Shown piece after piece: positions 5,348 to 24,335 of a stretch of DNA of 64,000 nt; position 1 is the stretch's first letter; each line of letters begins with the position of its first letter. The position numbers were made by a program, and so were the translations under genes. The stretch is from positions 64,001-128,000 of the forward strand of contig CM000436.1 in NCBI GenBank assembly GCA_000165345.1, read 5' to 3'. Below the pieces are notes generated by a model that was given only the letters and a program-made list of their open reading frames with translations, had not been told where the DNA came from and did not search any database.

Positions 5348-7762
5348 TCAAATGAAAGAATTGTTAATGGTGTTTGAAACTTCGGAAATAATTGTCGAAT
5401 TTAAATTTGAGTTATTAATGAAAGGATGGCAGGTATCGGATACTGCATGGGCAAAGAGAATATCCATCCAGCTTGAATAGATACCAGAAATGACATCTAC
5501 ATTCTGAATGCTCCCCGATGTATGTCCTTCAAGGAGCTTATGACAATATAAACAATATAAGGGTACTAAAATTTGAGGTATGGCGTTAGGGTTTACTGAT
5601 AAAATCATTTTAGCTGCATCATCTAAGATCTCTTCCTCTGAGGATGACTGATAGAAAGAGCATTCCTGGCAAAGTTGATTTTTTAAACAGCTCAATTTTG
5701 CAAGACTATCTCTATTAAAATTTGACGTAGATTCCCAAAGTTGCTTTTCTTGATTCCAAGTAGGAGAGAGAACAGTCCAAAATATCAAATTAATATGCTG
5801 AGAAAATTCAATCATTGTTCTTAAAAATGGAGGGATCTTTAGGTTAGATCCTTGACCCGAAAATTCAGGAATTAGTTGTGAAATTGTTTCCAAAATCCCT
5901 CTTTGGGGATAAAATTCTGTCATTAAAATAAGCTGTTTATCAAGAGAGATATCTTTTGTTGGAATAGATTCTGCCATGTACTCTTCCGGGAGATTTTCTT
6001 GAAAGTTATACTGTGAATACATATCTATTTTTTCGTTGATAATATTCAGAAATAGAGTAGGAGAAACACCTACAAAATGCTCCAAAATCATCCAAATAGA
6101 CACTATCTGGTTAGTACCTTCAATTCTTGCCAATTCTATAAGAAGAATTATCTTTTCTAATAACAAAAGCAGTTGTTTTAGAGATATTTTGGGTCCGAAT
6201 GATTTCTGAAGCTCCAAAGTTACTTGGTTAAATCTCTCCACTATAAGTTTTCTAGAAAAATCGATCTGTTGATCTTTTAAAGGCACAATCTGATGAATGA
6301 AATCTCTGATTAACTTGAGAAATACTGAAATTGATTCATCCATGCTCCAATCTGGGATATACTCATTTAGAAAACATTGTCTACACTTTAAATCACTTGA
6401 TTCTCCATTACTCATAAGAAAGATTTTATCTGCCTCTGTTTCAAGATTATCTGATACATATTCAAATAAGAAAGGAATCTTATTTGAAATCAATGTCAAT
6501 GCTCTTAGTACATCATCTTTTAAATCTGGTGAGTCTGAACATTCTTGTAAATAAATTGCAGGGTCGCAAAGATCAGTCTCTACCAGCCAAAGAGCATAGT
6601 TCATCAAAACTCTGGATCTCAAATTCTTTGACTTGAGTTCCAAAGGTACTTCCTCAAGAAATCCTTCATAAAAGAGAGGATCAAACAAATGTACAGCAAG
6701 AAATGGCCCATACAATTCAGATGACTCGTATATATGAACAATTAATTTGCTTAAATCCCTTGAAAGCAAATACAAAGCTCCAAGTTCATGCTCTAATATA
6801 TCTTGAGGAGCTTTCCTAAGAGCAGATGATCTCTTATTTTGTGATGATCTCGTCACAGAAGAGCCGAGTCCAGCTACTGGAGACGTATACTGGCTTAAAC
6901 AGTCCAAGTAAACAGATAAGAACTGAGGAAAGTTATCCAAAGTTATTCCAGAAACATACCTTGAAGAAAACACAAAAGCTTCTAACCAAGAATCAGAACA
7001 GTCCTGAATTACGCCTCCATTACCAAAAATTCCTTCTAAGGCAGTCTGAACTACAGCAGGAAGACTATTCTTCAATGATTGAAGTTCTTTGGTTAAGCCT
7101 CTGCTAATTGGATAAATGTCCTTCGAATAATGGCTTAGCAAATTACTTAAAGTAAGTATAAATTTATTGTTCGGAAACAAACTCCAAAGACTTGAGTTAA
7201 ATAATTCAACCTCTCCCAATAATAGAGCTCTTGTAAGGAGCTTTCCAAGTCTTTCTTCTGCATGCATAGCTTCCGATACCCTACCAGTTTCTTGTAAATC
7301 TAAAAAGTTGTCAGAAGCTTCAGTTAACTGTCCAACTAACTGAGAAACAGAATCTCTCATTCCATATTTAAGATACCATTTGAACAAATTATCTATTAAT
7401 TCATCTTCATCCGAATAAAATACCACGTAGAATAACTCAAATATATATGCACTGAAAAAAAACATGTCCATTGATTCCTGAAGTTCATCAGGATTACCAA
7501 AGTAAGTACTCAAATTACCAAATGACTCAGAAAACACACTTTTCAAGCTGGAAACATACTGCTCCAGAGATTTAGATATTGCTTGGTCGCTTTTATTCCT
7601 TAATGTTGTATTGGCTTCATATTGGAAAGTCTCAAAAACATGATGTAAACTCTTTGCCATTACCTCCATCAAGGCCATCTCTGAGCTACCCGGATCAAAA
7701 CTCGGATCATCCATTATGCCTATTCTTCCAACTTTCTTTACTTTTCTTCCTAATTCCCACAA
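5348..7762 (-). CDS. Large hypothetical protein (804 aa), mostly predicted alpha-helical. No recognisable catalytic motif.
   Basis: Long uninterrupted ORF with ATG. Leucine-rich helical repeat-like composition. Flanked by E2F boxes at 7815-7827 and 5165-5175. Confidence 0.55.
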   Translation of the reverse strand: MWELGRKVKKVGRIGIMDDPSFDPGSSEMALMEVMAKSLHHVFETFQYEANTTLRNKSDQAISKSLEQYVSSLKSVFSESFGNLSTYFGNPDELQESMDMFFFSAYIFELFYVVFYSDEDELIDNLFKWYLKYGMRDSVSQLVGQLTEASDNFLDLQETGRVSEAMHAEERLGKLLTRALLLGEVELFNSSLWSLFPNNKFILTLSNLLSHYSKDIYPISRGLTKELQSLKNSLPAVVQTALEGIFGNGGVIQDCSDSWLEAFVFSSRYVSGITLDNFPQFLSVYLDCLSQYTSPVAGLGSSVTRSSQNKRSSALRKAPQDILEHELGALYLLSRDLSKLIVHIYESSELYGPFLAVHLFDPLFYEGFLEEVPLELKSKNLRSRVLMNYALWLVETDLCDPAIYLQECSDSPDLKDDVLRALTLISNKIPFLFEYVSDNLETEADKIFLMSNGESSDLKCRQCFLNEYIPDWSMDESISVFLKLIRDFIHQIVPLKDQQIDFSRKLIVERFNQVTLELQKSFGPKISLKQLLLLLEKIILLIELARIEGTNQIVSIWMILEHFVGVSPTLFLNIINEKIDMYSQYNFQENLPEEYMAESIPTKDISLDKQLILMTEFYPQRGILETISQLIPEFSGQGSNLKIPPFLRTMIEFSQHINLIFWTVLSPTWNQEKQLWESTSNFNRDSLAKLSCLKNQLCQECSFYQSSSEEEILDDAAKMILSVNPNAIPQILVPLYCLYCHKLLEGHTSGSIQNVDVISGIYSSWMDILFAHAVSDTCHPFINNSNLNSTIISEVSNTINNSFI

Positions 7763-13000: not shown

Positions 13001-13449
13001 TTGTCAAGAAAACTAGAGTTATTTTCTGTAAGAGTTTAAGTAAAAGAAAATTTAAGAAAAATATACTCTAAGATCCTTGGAGAAAATAAACATTAGTAAT
13101 ATTGATACCCCAAAGTTACCGCACAAAAGAAGCAAAATGAGAAATAATGATGTAAAAAATATAAAAACTTTAAAATGAGTTACTTATGATTATAGTCAGA
13201 TAAAATTAGTACAAAAAAAGTACTTATCTAGCCTTCCTTGACTCCAACTTATCGGAGATTGGGGTGGAAGGTGGACCCATATTCTGCCATTCTCCCTTTT
13301 CCTGAAGAAAAGCTCTGTAAATATAGGAAAAGAATAAGGAATAAAAAGGTTTATAAATAGTATTAGAGGTAGATTGAGTGTATTTATTTCAAAAAGTGAG
13401 AGTTTTAGGAAATATGTTTGGGAGTGTTGACTTCCAATGCATACATAAC

Positions 13450-13740
13450 TTACCTATATACATATATTCCACAAATGATATTTACCAATATGACTGAGAA
13501 AACTGCAGAAACAACTGAGATGGACTGCTCTGGAAGGAATTTCCTGAGAAAAATTGGTGACAAAAAGAATAACCCACACGGAAGAAAGACTAGGGAGATT
13601 GTAAACAAGACAAACTCAGTGAGAACTTTCTTGTTGGAAGATTCTTTCAGTACCTTAGAAATCCCAAATGGAGCAGGACCTACGCAAGAGTCGATAGATT
13701 TGGCTTGTTCCTTTGACATTCCTTCAAATATTTTCAACAA
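13450..13740 (-). CDS. Small hypothetical membrane protein (96 aa; about 40 aa soluble N-terminus plus two predicted TM helices).
   Basis: Three overlapping small ORFs lie here. The minus-strand one was chosen. It is divergent from AC40, with the shared E2F double box at 13863-13884 about 125 bp upstream. It has clean hydrophobic segments (LTEFVLFTISLVFLPCGLFFL and VVSAVFSVILVNIICGIYVY). Confidence 0.3.
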   Translation of the reverse strand: MLKIFEGMSKEQAKSIDSCVGPAPFGISKVLKESSNKKVLTEFVLFTISLVFLPCGLFFLSPIFLRKFLPEQSISVVSAVFSVILVNIICGIYVYR

Positions 13741-15250: not shown

Positions 15251-15943
15251 TTAAGCTCCTTTATTTTTCCCCCCAATTTTCTTAAATAAACCACTATCTA
15301 TAAAGAACCTACTTGTATATTCTAAATATACTTCTGAAAACATTGTCTCACTCACCAAGTGAACTTTTATTAAAGGATTTGAACTACCCATTAAGTTTAT
15401 TACTTTCTCTTCTTGATTAATTTTATTCACTTGTTCATTTTCTTTCTTAACACTGCCCCTTTCATATCCAGACTCTGGATACAATTTAGGATCAGTATCC
15501 AATGAATTAATAATAATATCAGATATATACATTGAATCCAACAAATAATATGCAAGCTCGTGCTTACACGTAATCTCTTTCTTTTGCAACACTACTTTGT
15601 CTATGTAAGAATGGCACGTACAAAAATGTCTCATGACCAGATAACTCATATCTTGTCCTTTTGTAGTTGCCTCCATAATATAAAATCTTCTACAGGATTT
15701 CCTTTCAATATAAACATCAATCTTTCCATGATCTATAAGAGAAATTGCTTTTTCAACCAAACCTGGATATATCTCCGAAATGGTCTGTAAGATTTTCAAG
15801 TTAAAGTCCATAATAGAATTTTCATGGTCTTCTGGTTGAAAATCAAGTCTTGCATTTACCGGTTTCAACTCACTTACTAAACACAAAAGCGAATTAATGT
15901 GATCTTGGTTTTTGATTGTACAATACTTGAGCATGCAAGACAT
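15251..15943 (-). CDS. Small SWIM-type zinc-finger protein (Sws1/ZSWIM7-like candidate).
   Basis: 230 aa. CxCxnCxH signature FCTCHSYIDKVVLQKKEITCKHELA. No other domain. Confidence 0.5.
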   Translation of the reverse strand: MSCMLKYCTIKNQDHINSLLCLVSELKPVNARLDFQPEDHENSIMDFNLKILQTISEIYPGLVEKAISLIDHGKIDVYIERKSCRRFYIMEATTKGQDMSYLVMRHFCTCHSYIDKVVLQKKEITCKHELAYYLLDSMYISDIIINSLDTDPKLYPESGYERGSVKKENEQVNKINQEEKVINLMGSSNPLIKVHLVSETMFSEVYLEYTSRFFIDSGLFKKIGGKNKGA

Positions 15944-16500: not shown

Positions 16501-18132
16501 TTAACAATAACAGGCAGGGCTTGGTCTTATTCTGTTTAAATGATCAATAGTTCCTGTAGTTCTAACAAAAACAGGATGGCTCCTCTTTTTATTCATTTGT
16601 TTTCCATTTTTCCACATGCATCCTCCATTAGTTGGGTTGGGATCAATAAATTCACCATTCTGTTTCATTTGATAGAATGCATTTGGATTTGTATCGAGGA
16701 GATATTTTTTTCTTAATTCTTCTAACTGTTTCTTGTATTCAAAGTACCCTGGAGGAAAGACAATGGTTTCATAAACCATTGGTTTAAATACTTCATTTGC
16801 ACTGGAGTAGTTTTGTCTAATATGCTTCTCAGCCTCTAAGGCACCGTATTCACCAGAACAATACATTAATGTCTTGGCTGGATTTAAGCATGAAGCTGAA
16901 TCTGCAAACGTATCATCTCTTGCAAAGTCATGAACAGAATTCTTATATCTATTTGGCACACTATAGCAGTTAAGAGATTCCGAATTGTATTGATTATTCA
17001 TTCGTTGAGGAATACAGTTATCAAATGGATTTAAGGTTGTTGAATTTGTAAAGGTTGGTCTACCAGCACTAGAGCTTCTTCCATAATTTGGAGCCGAGTA
17101 TAGTTCTTCTCTGTTATAGTAGTTATCTCCATAGTTTTGTAAGTATTCTCCCTTGTAATGGGTAATATTGGAATTGTAAGGGACATTGGATTTTCCAGCC
17201 ATGAAATTTTTAACATTTGGTGGCGGATTTGATGGTGCATTTTGAGTAACTCTTCTAGTTGGATTTCTTTTTTGTGGAAATTGATCAAAGTTTGGTTGTC
17301 GCTCTGGAAGTCTTTCTTGGGGTTGATAAAAAGATTGGTTGATATTATCTCTCAAATGTCCGTCATCAGAATCAATTGAAAATGGGTATGGTACTGTTGG
17401 ATATTCAGTTTTATTATTTGGGTAATTTGAATAGCAACCTGTAAAACTGGGTCTTGAAGCATAATCTTCAGGTACCTTGTGTCTCTCAATATCAGAATTA
17501 GACTGATTGCTCCTTTGAGCTGTTGTTACACTGCTACTTCGTCTTGGAATTCCAGAATTACTAGCGTTCATTTCATTAATTGACTTTTTTGATCTAGAAT
17601 TTGCGGGGTTATTTCCTGCTGTGCTTGAAACACTACCTAATGACCTTCTATTTGGGATGGAATTTCCATTTTGTCTCTGAAATCTGTCTAATTCGTTTGA
17701 TCCTAATCCTGTTTTAGAGGGCATTTTCCTGGTGCTACTTGTCAGATTCTGTTGAGGTGGCTGGCTCTTATTTCTAAGAGACTCAAAAGACCTTCTTTTT
17801 GGTCTTAAAGTTGCTGAATTCATTACTGTTTGGCTTCCAGGAATAGACTTATTTTCTCCTTGAATTATATTTCTTGTTAAGTCTCTGGTTCTGGGTGTAA
17901 TTACTGGAACAGGAACTGGTATAGGATAAGAATGGTCACCAATTGGAGTTAATTTGTGGGAGTTATTTCTGCCATTTGAATGCATCATTTCGTCATAAAT
18001 ATCTGTTAAAGGAACTCCCGGAGTACCCATAGGTACTACCTTAGCATCCTTACCATTAGATGGCCATATTCCTGCATATCCTAAATGCTCACTGTCCATA
18101 GCATCTAACTTATTTTTATTTGAGTAGTTCAT
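16501..18132 (-). CDS. Hypothetical low-complexity protein (543 aa; N/S/P/R-rich) with a more conserved-looking C-terminal ~120 aa containing several Cys.
   Basis: Long ORF with ATG. Strong compositional bias. C-terminus ...GGCMWKNGKQMNKKRSHPVFVRTTGTIDHLNRIRPSPACYC. Confidence 0.5.
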   Translation of the reverse strand: MNYSNKNKLDAMDSEHLGYAGIWPSNGKDAKVVPMGTPGVPLTDIYDEMMHSNGRNNSHKLTPIGDHSYPIPVPVPVITPRTRDLTRNIIQGENKSIPGSQTVMNSATLRPKRRSFESLRNKSQPPQQNLTSSTRKMPSKTGLGSNELDRFQRQNGNSIPNRRSLGSVSSTAGNNPANSRSKKSINEMNASNSGIPRRSSSVTTAQRSNQSNSDIERHKVPEDYASRPSFTGCYSNYPNNKTEYPTVPYPFSIDSDDGHLRDNINQSFYQPQERLPERQPNFDQFPQKRNPTRRVTQNAPSNPPPNVKNFMAGKSNVPYNSNITHYKGEYLQNYGDNYYNREELYSAPNYGRSSSAGRPTFTNSTTLNPFDNCIPQRMNNQYNSESLNCYSVPNRYKNSVHDFARDDTFADSASCLNPAKTLMYCSGEYGALEAEKHIRQNYSSANEVFKPMVYETIVFPPGYFEYKKQLEELRKKYLLDTNPNAFYQMKQNGEFIDPNPTNGGCMWKNGKQMNKKRSHPVFVRTTGTIDHLNRIRPSPACYC

Positions 18133-19268: not shown

Positions 19269-19812
19269 ATGGAAGAACAAGGTAGGTTTGATTATGCAAA
19301 TTTGTGAATGCAACTAATTATCTACAATTTAATTATTTTGAAAATATAAAGCAAGCACAAGTCAAAATCAAGTTCCAGCTTCTGTACTTTATCAGTCTCA
19401 AGTCAATCAAATGGGCCCAAACGGTGGAATGGGTATGGTTCAACAGGTTCCTGGACAATATTACCAGCCTCAACATGTTCCAGGGTTCAATCAATATGCA
19501 GGTTTAATGAGACCAGAGGGATTTCCAGTTTATACAACTCAATGGCCGAGCGCATTCCATGGAGGAGATCCAACTCAGGTTCAAGCACCCATACAAACTC
19601 AATATTTACCTAGCGAAACCCCTGTATATTATGCATCAGCACAATGGGATACTCAATCTTACCTCCCTATGAGCTATTATGCAGGAGCTTATGACCCAAA
19701 TGGAATGGCTTATCCATTCCCTCAATCTGGCTCCTTCCAATACGTACAAGATGGTCCAGTCATTCCAAGAAAGAGAGGTGCAAAGAAACGTTTATTCAAG
19801 TTTTGTTGCTAA
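19269..19812 (+). CDS. Q/Y/P-rich low-complexity protein with a basic C-terminus ending KKRLFKFCC. Proposed as two exons, join(19269..19281, 19352..19812); the 5' micro-exon is tentative.
   Basis: Main ORF 19411..19812. Upstream, ATGGAAGAACAAG is followed by GTAGGT and an ...ATAAAG acceptor. Splicing 19281 to 19352 gives an in-frame stop-free extension MEEQ-A-STSQNQVPASVLYQSQVNQ-MGPNGG. Confidence 0.35.
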
Positions 19813-20080: not shown

Positions 20081-20092
20081 TTTTGGCGGCCA
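20081..20092. promoter_or_regulatory. E2F-like box TTTTGGCGGCCA about 180 bp upstream of the RNase-PH-like exosome gene.
   Basis: Direct match. Confidence 0.45.
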
Positions 20093-20271: not shown

Positions 20272-21303
20272 ATGACGAAGTCTATATCTGACTCAGAAAA
20301 ACTATTCTTAGAAGACGGGGTTGACCAAGGAATTCGCAATGATGGAAGAGATTTGACCGATTTCAGGCCAATAGTTATTGCTCTGGATGTTATTTCTACT
20401 GCTAATGGATCTTCCCGTATAAGGAATGATGAACTTGATATTATTGTAGCTGTTAAGGTATGTTAATAATTGAATTAAAAACGATTTTAAACCCAATTTA
20501 AACTTATTCAGTGTGAGATAATCTCTGTTACAGGAAAGAATGAACCACAAACAGGGGGCTCTATTTTGGTTAATGTTGATTGGTAAGTTTTTTGAACAAT
20601 TTATTTTTCTTTATTATTGCTTTAATATTATTTAGTTCTAATATCATGGATAAAATATCCAATGTAGCACCATCATTCACAGAAGAGGACTATTCATTTT
20701 ATATAACAAACATTGTCAAGGATATGTGTTTTAAAAATTTTGATCTTTCAAAACTTACAATCTTAGAAAATAAACTCTATTGGAATATTTATATTGATGC
20801 AACTATCCTAAGTTTTGGAGGTAATATGGTTGATTGGGTAACTATAGCAATCCATACTGCTTTAAGAACTACAAGGTAAGCGATTACTTCTCAATTCTCT
20901 CATTTGGTATTTAAAATTTACTGAAAATTACGTCTACAGAATCCCAAAAATTCATGTTTCTCCCTCAATCTCAACAAAGGAGAATAACAAAGATGTATCA
21001 TATACTGTATCACCCTCAGTTTGCTCAGGCACACCGTTTCCTTTTCAAGATATCCCTTTCATAATTTCGGCTGGGTGCATTAGAGGTAAAGTAATATGGG
21101 ATATGAATATGCAAGAACAAATATGCTCAAAAACAATCATTGCACTCTCAATTAATTCAAAAGGAGAGTGCGTTGCAATGAACAAAGTCTACTCGAACAC
21201 TCTTGACCTAAACCTTATTCCAACTATAATTAACAAAGCAGCAGAGATTTCTTCTGAAATATCTAAATCATTAGATGAATTCTTCTCTAACAAACAAGTA
21301 TGA
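20272..21303 (+). CDS. RNA exosome RNase-PH-like subunit of the Rrp45/Rrp42/Rrp43 type. Four exons: join(20272..20457, 20512..20582, 20636..20875, 20940..21303).
   Basis: Each intron starts GTATGT/GTAAGT/GTAAGC and ends CAG/TAG/CAG. Phases are consistent (0, 2, 2). Spliced product: MTKSISDSEKLFLEDGVDQGIRNDGRDLTDFRPIVIALDVISTANGSSRIRNDELDIIVAVK | CEIISVTGKNEPQTGGSILVNVDC | SNIMDK...KLYWNIYIDATILSFGGNMVDWVTIAIHTALRTTR | IPKIHV...IPFIISAGCIRGKVIWDMNMQEQICSKTIIALSINSKGECVAMNK... This tracks human EXOSC9 (DGSA..LG.T.V...VK.E...P...GYV.NVD...KLVWVLYCD...DGN..DA...A..AAL). Two of the exons and a TTG-initiated first-exon ORF appear separately in the ORF track. Confidence 0.7.
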
Positions 21304-21440
21304 GCACACTAGTTAACTATAATTATATATTTTAATTTACATCTTTTATTTATTTTATTCGTAAATTTTCACACTTCCAAAGTTACCGCCAAAAGTGGGG
21401 CATAATTCAGGAGACGAATGACAGTACAAATAGTCAATTG

Positions 21441-21505: not shown

Positions 21506-23005
21506 ATGATTAAACCAGAAAAAAAATTTGTTACTGAATATTCAGTAACTGGAAGACTGAGGATAGCCTCCATTTTGGATGGCGAGGATGGTGGGGTCTC
21601 TTATATTGGAAAGAAGGTTACAGTTGGAGGATGGGCAAGAACAGTTAGAAAGCAATGCTCTGACACTTTGCTTTTCATATCTCTGAATGATGGTTCAACA
21701 TCAAGCAACTTACAATGTGTAGTAGAGAAGACTGTTAAAGGGTTTGAAGAGGGTTTAAAGGCGACAGCAGGATGTTCATTTAAAATAACTGGTACAATAG
21801 TAAAGTCACCAGCTCAGGGACAGTCAGTAGAGTTACTTTTGAATACAGGCGATGATGAGCTCAAAATTTGCGGATTGTGTGATGCCTCAAAATACCCACT
21901 TGCAAAAAAGCATCATTCAAAAGAATTCTTGAGGGAAGTTGCCCACTTGCGTCCAAGAAGTCAGTTCTTTAGCTCAGTTATGAGAATCAGAAATTCTCTT
22001 GCTATTGCAATTCATGAATATTTCCAAAAGAACGGTTTTATGTACATTCACACTCCAATTATTACTGCAGCAGACTGTGAAGGAGCAGGAGAAATGTTTC
22101 AAGTAACTACAGTTTTACCACCTGAATCTAAAAACAACATTTCCAACATCCCTGCATCAAAGATTGAGGGAAGCCAAGATATGGCAGTTGACTATAAAAA
22201 GGATTTCTTTGGAAAGGCTTCTTATTTGACTGTTTCTGGACAACTTGCTTTAGAGAACTTTGCATGCTCTATGTCTGATGTTTATACATTTGGACCAACT
22301 TTCAGAGCGGAAAATTCTCACACAACAAGACATCTTGCTGAATTTTGGATGATCGAGCCTGAAATGGCATTTGCTGATCTTAGTGATAACATGAAACTTG
22401 GAGAAGGACTTCTTAAATACACTGTAGAATACGTTTTAATTAACAATATGCCCGATTTATTATATCTTGACAAAAATATAGAAAATGGACTTGTAGAAAG
22501 GTTAAAGGTTATTTGCAAAGAAGAATTTGCAAGAATTTCCTATACCGAAGCAATTGAGATGCTTAAACCTCATGATAAGGAATTTACTGTTCCTGTCTCA
22601 TGGGGCATGGATTTGGGTTCAGAACATGAAAAGTATATTACAGATGTACTCGAAAAAAGACCTTGCATAATCTACAACTATCCTAAAGATATCAAGTCTT
22701 TTTATATGAAATTGAATGAAGACGGAAATACAGTTGCAGCAATGGATATCCTAGTCCCAAAAATCGGAGAGGTTATCGGTGGTTCTCAGAGAGAAGATGA
22801 CATTGAAAAATTAGAGAACGCAATAAAGAGCAGAAATATGGATCCAGCTCCCTATTGGTGGTATAATGAACTAAGAAAGTATGGTTCTGTTCCACATTCA
22901 GGGTTTGGTTTAGGATTTGAAAGACTAATCATGATGGTTACCGGCGTAGAGAATGTCCGTGACGTCATACCATTCCCTAGATACCCCAATCATTGCGAAT
23001 TCTAA
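21506..23005 (+). CDS. Asparaginyl-tRNA synthetase, class IIb (cytosolic type).
   Basis: 499 aa. N-terminal OB anticodon-binding domain. Class II motifs: FRAE..TRHLAEFWMIEPEMAF (motif 2 region), GGSQRED, and WWYNELRKYGSVPHSGFGLGFERLIMMVTGVENVRDVIPFPR (AsnRS-typical motif 3). Confidence 0.9.
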   Translation: MIKPEKKFVTEYSVTGRLRIASILDGEDGGVSYIGKKVTVGGWARTVRKQCSDTLLFISLNDGSTSSNLQCVVEKTVKGFEEGLKATAGCSFKITGTIVKSPAQGQSVELLLNTGDDELKICGLCDASKYPLAKKHHSKEFLREVAHLRPRSQFFSSVMRIRNSLAIAIHEYFQKNGFMYIHTPIITAADCEGAGEMFQVTTVLPPESKNNISNIPASKIEGSQDMAVDYKKDFFGKASYLTVSGQLALENFACSMSDVYTFGPTFRAENSHTTRHLAEFWMIEPEMAFADLSDNMKLGEGLLKYTVEYVLINNMPDLLYLDKNIENGLVERLKVICKEEFARISYTEAIEMLKPHDKEFTVPVSWGMDLGSEHEKYITDVLEKRPCIIYNYPKDIKSFYMKLNEDGNTVAAMDILVPKIGEVIGGSQREDDIEKLENAIKSRNMDPAPYWWYNELRKYGSVPHSGFGLGFERLIMMVTGVENVRDVIPFPRYPNHCEF

Positions 23006-23569: not shown

Positions 23570-24335
23570 ATGGTAAGTTTTTAATGTTAATGTAACTATA
23601 TATATTAATTTTTCTTTCCTTTCTTTAATTCAGGACGATATTGAAGCACAAAAGCAAATTCAACAGATGATTAACTTCATCTTAAATGAAGCCAAGGACA
23701 AAGCTAATGAAATTGAGGCAAAGGCTTTGCAAGATTTTAATATTGAAAAGTTGAAGTTAGTTCAAAGCTATAAAGAGCAGATTCGTCAGGATCTCAAGAA
23801 GAAAGTTAAGAGATTAGAGGTTGAAAGAGCAATCGCTAGAAGTACTGCAATTAATAAGGCTAGACTTAAGAAGATGGCAGCTAGAGCACAAGTTTTAACT
23901 GAAGTAGTACAACAAACAAGAAAGAAAATGTGCGAAATTTCTACTAATCCAACTGTCTACGAGCCACTTTTGGTGGATTTACTTACTCAAGCAATGTTGA
24001 AGCTCTTGGAACCAACAGTGATTGTAAAGTGTAGAAAGTCTGATGTTTCTGTTGTAGAAAGCGCAATTCCAAAGGCTATTAAGAAATATAAGGAGATTTT
24101 ACAGAAGGAATGCGGTGTCTCAATGAATGTTGAGGCTAAGGTTGACAAGGAGAACTTCCTTTTCCCTGCTCCTACAAGTGTTGAGCAGAATTCCAAGTAC
24201 TGCTCTGGCGGAGTTATTGTCACTAATTTGGATGGTAAGATTGTTTGCAACAATACTTTGGACGCAAGACTGGACTTAGTCATTCAAAATGATGCTCCAA
24301 TCATAAGATCTACTCTTTTCCCAAAGGCTGCTTAA
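23570..24335 (+). CDS. V-type H+-ATPase subunit E. Two exons: join(23570..23572, 23634..24335). The first exon is the ATG codon alone.
   Basis: ATG|GTAAGTTTTT...TTAATTCAG|GACGATATTGAAGCACAAAAGCAAATTCAACAGATG... gives M-DDIEAQKQIQQMINFILNEAKDKANEIEAKA. This matches the V-ATPase E N-terminus ([34 protein letters not shown]). Later segments agree too: LLEPTVIVKCRKSD..., NTLDARLDLV. Without the splice, the ORF track begins at an internal Met (23667). Confidence 0.82.

What the first reader, a model, noticed from the sequence alone, without database searches (positions are those of the whole stretch)
20272..21303. Four-exon exosome RNase-PH-like gene in an intron-poor genome
Translations of four consecutive segments (exons 20272-20457, 20512-20582, 20636-20875, 20940-21303) concatenate into a collinear Rrp45/Rrp42-type exosome subunit. 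Donor sites are GTATGT/GTAAGT/GTAAGC, acceptor ends CAG/TAG/CAG, and phases are consistent. Three introns in one 1-kb gene is unusual for this genome type and would fragment ORF-based annotation. The exosome cap gene CSL4 (552-1229) is in the same window but unlinked.
Basis: partly seen in the sequence, partly recalled or inferred. Interest (0 to 1): 0.55.

Follow-up and report, generated by a model that had tools for sequence, protein, structure and literature searches.

The report
Known four-exon Cryptosporidium RRP42 gene
The four segments are the real, already annotated RRP42 (EXOSC7-type) RNA-exosome ring subunit gene of Cryptosporidium parvum (cgd8_340), so the finding is correct but ordinary.

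Summary
Exons 20272-20457, 20512-20582, 20636-20875 and 20940-21303 have GT..AG borders and consistent phases.

- **Already deposited:** the window is C. parvum chromosome 8, and the exact 286-aa product is in GenBank (QOY39782.1 / CPATCC_003825, WRK33778.1; UniRef "Ribosomal RNA-processing protein 42").
- **Identity:** it aligns end to end with human RRP42/EXOSC7 (E 6e-31), without a break across all three junctions. An AlphaFold model (pLDDT 87) superposes best on human RRP42 (TM 0.85).
- **Intron conservation:** position and phase are identical in seven other Cryptosporidium species, including the gastric C. muris. Intron sequence diverges faster than exon sequence. Intron 2 sits in the same codon and phase as an intron of a chytrid fungus orthologue.
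- **How unusual:** published re-annotations report introns in about 10.8% of C. parvum genes, with 2-10 exons per intron-bearing gene (mean 2.6). Four exons is above average but within that range.

Nothing here is new. The most likely function is a catalytically inert structural subunit of the Exo9 ring.

The parts
20272..20457 (+). Exon 1 (186 nt, ATG at 20272, ends in phase 0 after K62)
   Evidence: The length is identical (186 nt) in all eight Cryptosporidium orthologue loci.
20458..20511 (+). Intron 1 (54 nt, GTATGT...TTCAG)
   Evidence: An in-frame stop follows 3 codons after the junction if the intron is retained. The position is conserved across the genus.
20512..20582 (+). Exon 2 (71 nt, ends in phase 2 inside the C86 codon)
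   Evidence: Its first two codons, C63 and E64, are invariant in the orthologues. This favours the acceptor at 20511/20512 over the one 6 nt downstream (after 20517) that the 284-aa model KAL5366763.1 uses.
20583..20635 (+). Intron 2 (53 nt, GTAAGT...TTTAG)
   Evidence: It lies in the same codon and phase in all Cryptosporidium orthologues and in the Synchytrium microbalum orthologue.
20636..20875 (+). Exon 3 (240 nt, ends in phase 2 inside the R166 codon)
   Evidence: It is 240 nt in the six intestinal species with usable deposited models (C. parvum, meleagridis, canis, felis, bovis, ryanae) and in my re-derived chipmunk-genotype model, and 213 nt in C. muris.
20876..20939 (+). Intron 3 (64 nt, GTAAGC...TACAG)
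   Evidence: Position and phase are conserved across the genus.
20940..21303 (+). Exon 4 (364 nt, including the TGA stop at 21301-21303). It encodes the C-terminal RNase-PH domain 2 and the terminal helix.
20083..20089 (+). E2F-like motif TTGGCGG, 189 nt upstream of the ATG (candidate promoter element)
   Evidence: TTGGCGS occurs 19 times in the window against 2.3 expected. The E2F-like upstream motif family is already described for C. parvum (PMC3734150). No function was tested at this site.

Best explanation
This is the C. parvum chromosome 8 gene cgd8_340 (CPATCC_003825). It is a four-exon, three-intron nuclear gene, and its mRNA is spliced at canonical GT-AG sites to encode a 286-aa Rrp42/EXOSC7 orthologue. 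By homology, the protein is one of the six RNase-PH-like subunits of the ring of the RNA exosome core (Exo9). There it most likely acts as a catalytically inert structural subunit that helps form the central RNA channel and docks the cap proteins and the Dis3/Rrp6 nucleases. The three short introns are old. They predate the split between gastric and intestinal Cryptosporidium, and at least intron 2 is probably much older. They are survivors of the genome-wide intron loss in this lineage, not a new feature. Shown here: the gene structure, sequence and fold homology, conservation of intron positions, and prior annotation. Inferred: ring incorporation, lack of phosphorolytic activity, and the splicing itself, which rests on published RNA-seq-based annotation and not on reads I could inspect.
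For: - Exact match of the spliced product to GenBank QOY39782.1/WRK33778.1 and UniRef 'Ribosomal RNA-processing protein 42'.
- The flanking AsnRS is identical to C. parvum EAK87485.1.
- Pfam RNase_PH hit at 1.8e-16, 61.2 bits against a cut-off of 25.5.
- Human RRP42 at 6e-31 over residues 4-273, against RRP43 at 6.7e-15 and RRP45 at 7.6e-8. Among the yeast exosome chains that hit, Rrp42 is also the best.
- AlphaFold model with pLDDT 87 and pTM 0.88. The top Foldseek hit is human RRP42, chain 6d6q_E, TM 0.85/0.85 over 288 columns.
- Identical intron positions and phases in C. meleagridis, canis, felis, bovis and ryanae, C. muris and the chipmunk-genotype DNA.
- The same gene order (RRP42 followed by AsnRS, then vATPase E where the locus extends that far) in all these loci.
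- Exons are 58-98% identical between species against 45-86% for the adjacent introns. Intron GC is 22.2% against 33.8% for exons, equal to the published genome-wide intron GC of 22%.
- dN/dS of 0.082 for cgd8_340 between C. parvum and C. hominis. The listed identity of 0.986 equals the 282/286 I computed.
- C. parvum is reported to encode six distinct RNase-PH ring proteins (PMC7000224).
Against: - I could inspect no transcript reads, so splicing is supported only indirectly.
- Pfam RNase_PH_C is below its gathering score (16.3 against 20.8 bits), although sequence and structure alignments cover that domain.
- One deposited C. parvum model (KAL5366763.1, 284 aa) uses an acceptor 6 nt downstream, so the exact intron 1 acceptor is not unanimous.
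- I did not do a reciprocal search from human EXOSC7 against the full C. parvum proteome.
Confidence: 0.95

Rival explanations
1. The gene is the same, but the true or major mRNA uses the in-frame acceptor 6 nt downstream in exon 2 (cag|TGTGAG|ATA, exon 2 starting at 20518). This gives a 284-aa protein without C63-E64, or both isoforms exist (tandem-acceptor alternative splicing).
For: GenBank KAL5366763.1 (CPHLJ_8g340) is exactly this 284-aa form. The TGTGAG hexamer is also present in the chipmunk-genotype sequence.
Against: C63 and E64 are invariant in all well-modelled Cryptosporidium orthologues. The outgroup sequences in the alignment keep a matching K-[CF]-[ED] motif. Four independent annotations give 286 aa: CPATCC, WRK, C. 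hominis and C. tyzzeri.
Confidence: 0.08
2. The protein is an RNase-PH ring subunit but is the orthologue of Rrp45 (EXOSC9) or Rrp43 (EXOSC8), not Rrp42.
For: All three belong to the same Rrp42-like subtype, and all give significant hits. Foldseek scores for Rrp45 and Rrp43 chains are only a few orders of magnitude weaker than for RRP42.
Against: Human RRP42 scores 110.8 bits against 58.2 (RRP43) and about 35 (RRP45). Yeast Rrp42 scores 44 bits against 20.7 for yeast Rrp45. The top structural hit is RRP42. Independent source names also say RRP42.
Confidence: 0.03
3. It is not a functional spliced gene, but a decaying pseudogene whose ORF fragments merely resemble an exosome subunit.
For: The unspliced sequence has stop codons in every frame, and only fragments appear in a plain ORF list.
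Against: - Every interruption is bounded by canonical GT..AG at conserved positions and phases in eight species.
- Exons are more conserved than introns.
- dN/dS is 0.082.
- The spliced product folds confidently as a complete two-domain subunit.
Confidence: 0.01

Closest known systems
Human EXOSC7 / RRP42 (PDB 6d6q_E, 6h25_E, 2nn6_E)
   Same: The alignment is collinear over the full length (residues 4-273, E 6e-31). The predicted fold superposes with TM 0.85. Both have a two-domain RNase-PH-like architecture and similar length (286 aa in the window; the deposited chains are 293-305 residues).
   Different: Identity is only about 27-28%. The Cryptosporidium protein has a short lineage-specific insert around residues 87-100 and a low-confidence loop at 175-185. 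Exosome incorporation has not been shown experimentally for the parasite protein.
Archaeal exosome Rrp42 (for example S. solfataricus 2br2_A, 3l7z)
   Same: It is in the same Rrp42 subtype of the RNase-PH family: sequence E 2.6e-18 and Foldseek E about 1e-21 to 1e-22. In archaea this is the non-catalytic partner of Rrp41 (established knowledge).
   Different: Archaeal rings contain three copies of one Rrp42. Eukaryotes have three distinct Rrp42-like paralogues, each in a single copy.
Deposited Cryptosporidium orthologues (C. hominis CUV07580.1, C. tyzzeri TRY49823.1, C. meleagridis P0017, C. canis, C. felis, C. bovis, C. ryanae, C. muris RN66 P0023)
   Same: The locus and gene order are the same, with RRP42 followed by AsnRS. 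Intron positions and phases are the same. Identity runs from 47% to 99%.
   Different: Exon 2 is 62-71 nt and exon 3 is 213-240 nt, depending on the species. Intron lengths range from 45 to 101 nt.

Membership tests
RNase PH-like exoribonuclease family (Pfam PF01138 / PF03725) | N-terminal RNase_PH domain 1 above Pfam's gathering score | tested here: met
   PF01138 at E 1.8e-16, 61.2 bits against a cut-off of 25.5. Residues 30-168 cover profile positions 1-130 of 130.
RNase PH-like exoribonuclease family (Pfam PF01138 / PF03725) | C-terminal RNase_PH_C domain 2 | tested here: inconclusive
   Pfam PF03725 scores 16.3 bits, below its 20.8 cut-off. However, the PDB sequence alignment to human RRP42 runs through residue 273. 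The model also superposes on RRP42 over 288 columns, including this domain.
Eukaryotic exosome subunit Rrp42 / EXOSC7 | Closer to Rrp42 than to the other five ring paralogues of the same reference species | tested here: met
   Human RRP42 110.8 bits, RRP43 58.2, RRP45 about 35. Yeast Rrp42 44 bits, Rrp45 20.7. The best structural hit is 6d6q_E, RRP42.
Eukaryotic exosome subunit Rrp42 / EXOSC7 | Reciprocal best hit: no other C. parvum paralogue is closer to EXOSC7 | not tested
   The C. parvum proteome was not available as a searchable set. Only the published statement that C. parvum has six distinct ring proteins (PMC7000224) and the names given by the sources bear on this.
Eukaryotic exosome subunit Rrp42 / EXOSC7 | Physical incorporation into the Exo9 ring | not testable with these tools
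   This needs co-purification or a structure of the parasite complex.
Eukaryotic exosome subunit Rrp42 / EXOSC7 | No phosphorolytic activity (inert ring subunit) | not tested
   Inferred from established knowledge of yeast and human Exo9 and of archaeal Rrp42. I did not examine active-site residues.
Spliceosomal (GT-AG) intron-containing nuclear gene | Canonical GT..AG borders, phases that restore one ORF, and positions conserved in orthologues | tested here: met
   Introns diverge faster than exons, and intron GC is 22%.
Spliceosomal (GT-AG) intron-containing nuclear gene | Spliced transcript observed | not testable with these tools
   No reads were available. The evidence is indirect: the CPATCC annotation that contains this exact model reports all its introns as RNA-seq supported (PMC8744675).

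The most novel reading that the evidence does not exclude
The most novel reading the evidence leaves open has two parts. First, the conserved tandem acceptor at intron 1 (cag|TGTGAG|) may produce two real isoforms (286 and 284 aa). Second, the retention of three ancient introns in this exosome-subunit gene may be functional, for example splicing-dependent control of exosome dosage, since each retained intron gives an immediate stop. The alternative is that the introns are simply leftovers of incomplete intron loss.
Probability: 0.07. Interest if true: 0.3.

Novelty: already known. Interest (0 to 1): 0.08.

Why it matters
It matters little beyond quality control. The result shows that the first-stage reader can reconstruct a correct multi-exon gene from raw sequence in a compact apicomplexan genome. 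It also flags deposited models that look wrong or divergent: the chipmunk genotype I model, and the 284-aa C. parvum variant. The conservation of all three intron positions across the genus, and of one in a chytrid fungus, is a small data point for the view that Cryptosporidium's few introns are retained ancestral ones.

Tried and rejected
- **Transcript evidence in the protein and contig collection:** the exact protein is carried only by two genome contigs longer than 1 Mb. There was no transcript-like contig, so no direct cDNA evidence.
- **Supplements of PMC8744675:** none are held as text.
- **Polycistron preprint:** it does not mention cgd8_340.
- **Outgroup intron comparison:** beyond the genus, the profile search returned only one orthologue with a long genomic contig suitable for reading introns, Synchytrium. 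No Toxoplasma, Plasmodium or gregarine orthologue was found, so intron ancestry within Apicomplexa could not be tested.
- **Rfam (gathering threshold) and tRNA scans of the whole window:** nothing found. The introns are too short for snoRNAs in any case.
- **Bacterial promoter/terminator scan:** not informative for a eukaryote.
- **My own error:** three exact look-ups (window 5348-7759, 15251-15940, 16501-18129, minus strand) failed because I trimmed the wrong end, removing the start codon and not the stop codon. Those 'not in the collection' results mean nothing.
- **Pseudogene reading and Rrp45/Rrp43 orthology:** both considered and rejected (see rival explanations).

Full report
**Where we are.** The window is AT-rich (about 31% GC). 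The 499-aa ORF just downstream of the finding (21506-23005) is identical to the asparaginyl-tRNA synthetase of Cryptosporidium parvum Iowa II, EAK87485.1. A 21-kb stretch of C. parvum chromosome 8 (CP141125.1) is base-for-base identical to window 10272-31303. The "intron-poor genome" is therefore C. parvum.

**Checking the observation.**
- Donors are GTATGT, GTAAGT and GTAAGC.
- Acceptors are ..TTCAG, ..TTTAG and ..TACAG.
- Exon lengths are 186, 71, 240 and 364 nt, so the introns lie in phases 0, 2 and 2.
- The concatenated 861 nt form one ORF with a single terminal stop.

The product is 286 aa. The introns are 54, 53 and 64 nt with 22.2% GC, against 33.8% in the exons. Retaining any of them gives a stop within 2-3 codons. 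That is why a plain six-frame ORF list shows only pieces of 74, 99 and 66 aa.

**What the product is.**
- **Pfam:** RNase_PH domain 1 matches over its full length (E 1.8e-16, 61.2 bits, cut-off 25.5). RNase_PH_C is below threshold (16.3 against 20.8 bits).
- **PDB sequences:** the best matches are the three versions of human RRP42/EXOSC7 (E 6e-31, query 4-273). The alignment runs without a break across all junctions. Junction 2 lies inside the conserved "VDCS" and junction 3 inside "TRIP". Human RRP43/EXOSC8 scores 6.7e-15 and RRP45/EXOSC9 7.6e-8. Archaeal Rrp42 reaches about 1e-18. Yeast Rrp42 (1e-10) beats yeast Rrp45 (2e-3).
- **Structure:** an AlphaFold2 model built on a 20-sequence alignment is confident (mean pLDDT 87, pTM 0.88). 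Its best Foldseek match in the PDB is human RRP42, chain 6d6q_E (E 4.8e-25, TM 0.85/0.85, 288 aligned columns), followed by archaeal Rrp42 chains.

**It is already annotated.** An exact-sequence look-up finds the 286-aa product as QOY39782.1 (CPATCC_003825) and WRK33778.1, and as UniRef A0A7S7LE30 "Ribosomal RNA-processing protein 42". Near-identical entries exist in C. hominis ("Exosome complex exonuclease RRP42") and C. tyzzeri. The locus tag CPHLJ_8g340, and the neighbours' names (cpbgf_800330 upstream, Cgd8_360 for the vATPase E gene two genes downstream), identify it as cgd8_340. In the supplement of Isaza et al. 2015, cgd8_340 is listed with 0.986 identity to C. hominis and dN/dS 0.082. 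I computed 282/286 = 0.986. Baptista et al. [quoted passage not shown] That is the only transcript evidence I could reach, and it is indirect.

**Intron conservation.** I fetched the orthologous loci and threaded each deposited protein exactly onto its DNA. The species were C. meleagridis, chipmunk genotype I, C. canis, C. felis, C. bovis, C. ryanae and C. muris.
- In C. meleagridis, canis, felis, bovis and ryanae the structure is the same. Exon 1 is 186 nt (phase 0), exon 2 is 65-71 nt (phase 2), and exon 3 is 240 nt (phase 2).
- The gastric species C. muris (47% identity) has the same three positions and phases (186, 62 and 213 nt).
- The deposited chipmunk-genotype protein (291 aa) skips exon 2 and uses an early acceptor in intron 3. 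Its DNA nevertheless supports the same four-exon model and yields a 287-aa orthologue.
- Against C. parvum, exons are 58-98% identical. Every intron is less conserved than the exons beside it (45-86%).
- Gene order is conserved everywhere, with RRP42 followed by AsnRS, and then vATPase E where the fetched locus extends that far.
- Outside the genus, the only orthologue with a long genomic contig was from the chytrid Synchytrium microbalum. Its first intron lies in the same Cys codon of V-[DE]-C-S, in the same phase 2, as Cryptosporidium intron 2.
- With 3 x 4 intron pairs over about 860 aligned coding positions, an exact coincidence is expected roughly 1-2% of the time (my rough estimate). This suggests, but does not prove, an ancient shared intron. 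Introns 1 and 3 are not shared with Synchytrium.

**How unusual is it?** Isaza et al. report introns in 10.8% of C. parvum genes (4.3% in the original annotation). They count 688 introns in all, with mean length 99 bp and GC 22%. Intron-bearing genes have 2-10 exons, mean 2.6 (PMC4637869). Four exons is above the mean but inside the range. Locally, 4 of the 21 complete genes called in window 10.3-53 kb carry introns, and RRP42 is the only one with more than one. The gene is uncommon, not exceptional.

The claim that it would defeat ORF-based annotation has indirect support:
- Neither this protein nor any homologue found carries a 2004-era accession (EAK/XP_62xxxx for C. parvum, XP_66xxxx for C. 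hominis TU502). The flanking genes carry consecutive ones: EAK87484.1 upstream and EAK87485.1 downstream.
- Two deposited models disagree with the consensus: the chipmunk-genotype model, and KAL5366763.1. The latter uses an acceptor 6 nt downstream and lacks C63-E64.
- C63 and E64 are invariant in the orthologues, so the 286-aa form is preferred.

**Mechanism.** By homology, the protein is one of the three Rrp42-like subunits of the six-membered RNase-PH-like ring of the exosome core. The ring is capped by Csl4, Rrp4 and Rrp40 and feeds RNA to Dis3 (architecture as summarised in PMC7000224). That paper also states that C. parvum, unlike Plasmodium, encodes six distinct ring proteins. In yeast and human the ring is catalytically inert, and in archaea Rrp42 is the inactive partner of Rrp41 (established knowledge, not tested here). 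The most likely role is therefore structural. Ring incorporation and inactivity are inferences.

**Surroundings.**
- A TTGGCGG motif lies 189 nt upstream of the ATG (20083-20089), and another lies upstream of AsnRS (21386-21392, minus strand).
- TTGGCGS occurs 19 times in the window against 2.3 expected (0 of 100 shuffles reach 19). Every site I compared with the ORF list lies outside the large ORFs, mostly just upstream of a gene start.
- This is the known E2F-like upstream motif of C. parvum (PMC3734150; bioRxiv 10.1101/2025.01.17.633476).
- No Rfam family or tRNA is present in the window.
- The "CSL4" ORF at 552-1229 is on the minus strand, 19 kb away. It has no Pfam hit at 1e-3, but all nine of its PDB sequence hits are CSL4 (best 2.9e-5, C-terminal part). 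One recent annotation calls it "exosomal 3'-5' exoribonuclease-like protein". The identification is plausible but weak.

**Verdict.** Novelty: already known. Interest: low.

Noticed in passing
It has no Pfam hit at E<=1e-3, but all nine PDB sequence hits are exosome CSL4 (best 2.9e-5, C-terminal S1/zinc-ribbon part only). Most annotations call it 'hypothetical' (EAK87474.1). One recent annotation calls it 'exosomal 3'-5' exoribonuclease-like protein'. A TTGGCGC palindrome lies about 60 nt upstream of its start.
   Followed up: partly
window 23570-24335 (+): In the deposited 234-aa model of the vacuolar ATPase subunit E gene (Cgd8_360), exon 1 is only the ATG start codon (23570-23572). A 61-nt GTAAGT...TTCAG intron follows. 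Older models are 222 aa (internal ATG at 23667) or '252 aa, partial'.
   Followed up: partly
window 19269-19812 (+): The upstream gene cgd8_330 has a 13-nt first exon and a 70-nt intron in recent models (157 aa). The 2004 model (EAK87484.1, 133 aa) starts at the internal ATG at 19411. The protein is Q/P/Y-rich and has no Pfam hit.
   Followed up: partly
window 13224-13719 (minus strand): The VMA21 gene has a single 139-nt intron. Together with cgd8_330, RRP42 and vATPase E, this makes four intron-bearing genes within about 11 kb. In contrast, all nine complete genes between 32 and 53 kb are intronless.
   Followed up: partly
L006 3001-4040 (Cryptosporidium sp. chipmunk genotype I, SCFC02000026.1): The deposited RRP42 model (P0018, 291 aa, 'exoribonuclease PH') appears mis-annotated. 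It skips exon 2 and uses an early acceptor in intron 3. The DNA supports the genus-wide four-exon model and gives a 287-aa protein.
   Followed up: yes
window 20512-20517: There is a tandem in-frame acceptor, cag|TGTGAG|. The C. parvum model KAL5366763.1 (284 aa) uses the downstream AG and drops the invariant C63-E64. This could be an annotation error or a minor isoform.
   Followed up: partly
window-wide, e.g. 1289, 5166, 8621, 10103, 13866, 16088, 20083, 21386, 33554, 40014, 41865, 46912, 61161: TTGGCGS occurs 19 times against 2.3 expected. Every site compared with the ORF list lies outside the large ORFs, mostly just upstream of a gene start. This matches the published E2F-like upstream motif of C. 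parvum.
   Followed up: yes
L010 501-1867 (Synchytrium microbalum QEAO01000009.1): The first intron of the chytrid Rrp42 orthologue is in the same codon (Cys of V-[DE]-C-S) and the same phase as Cryptosporidium intron 2. Its other three introns are at different positions.
   Followed up: partly
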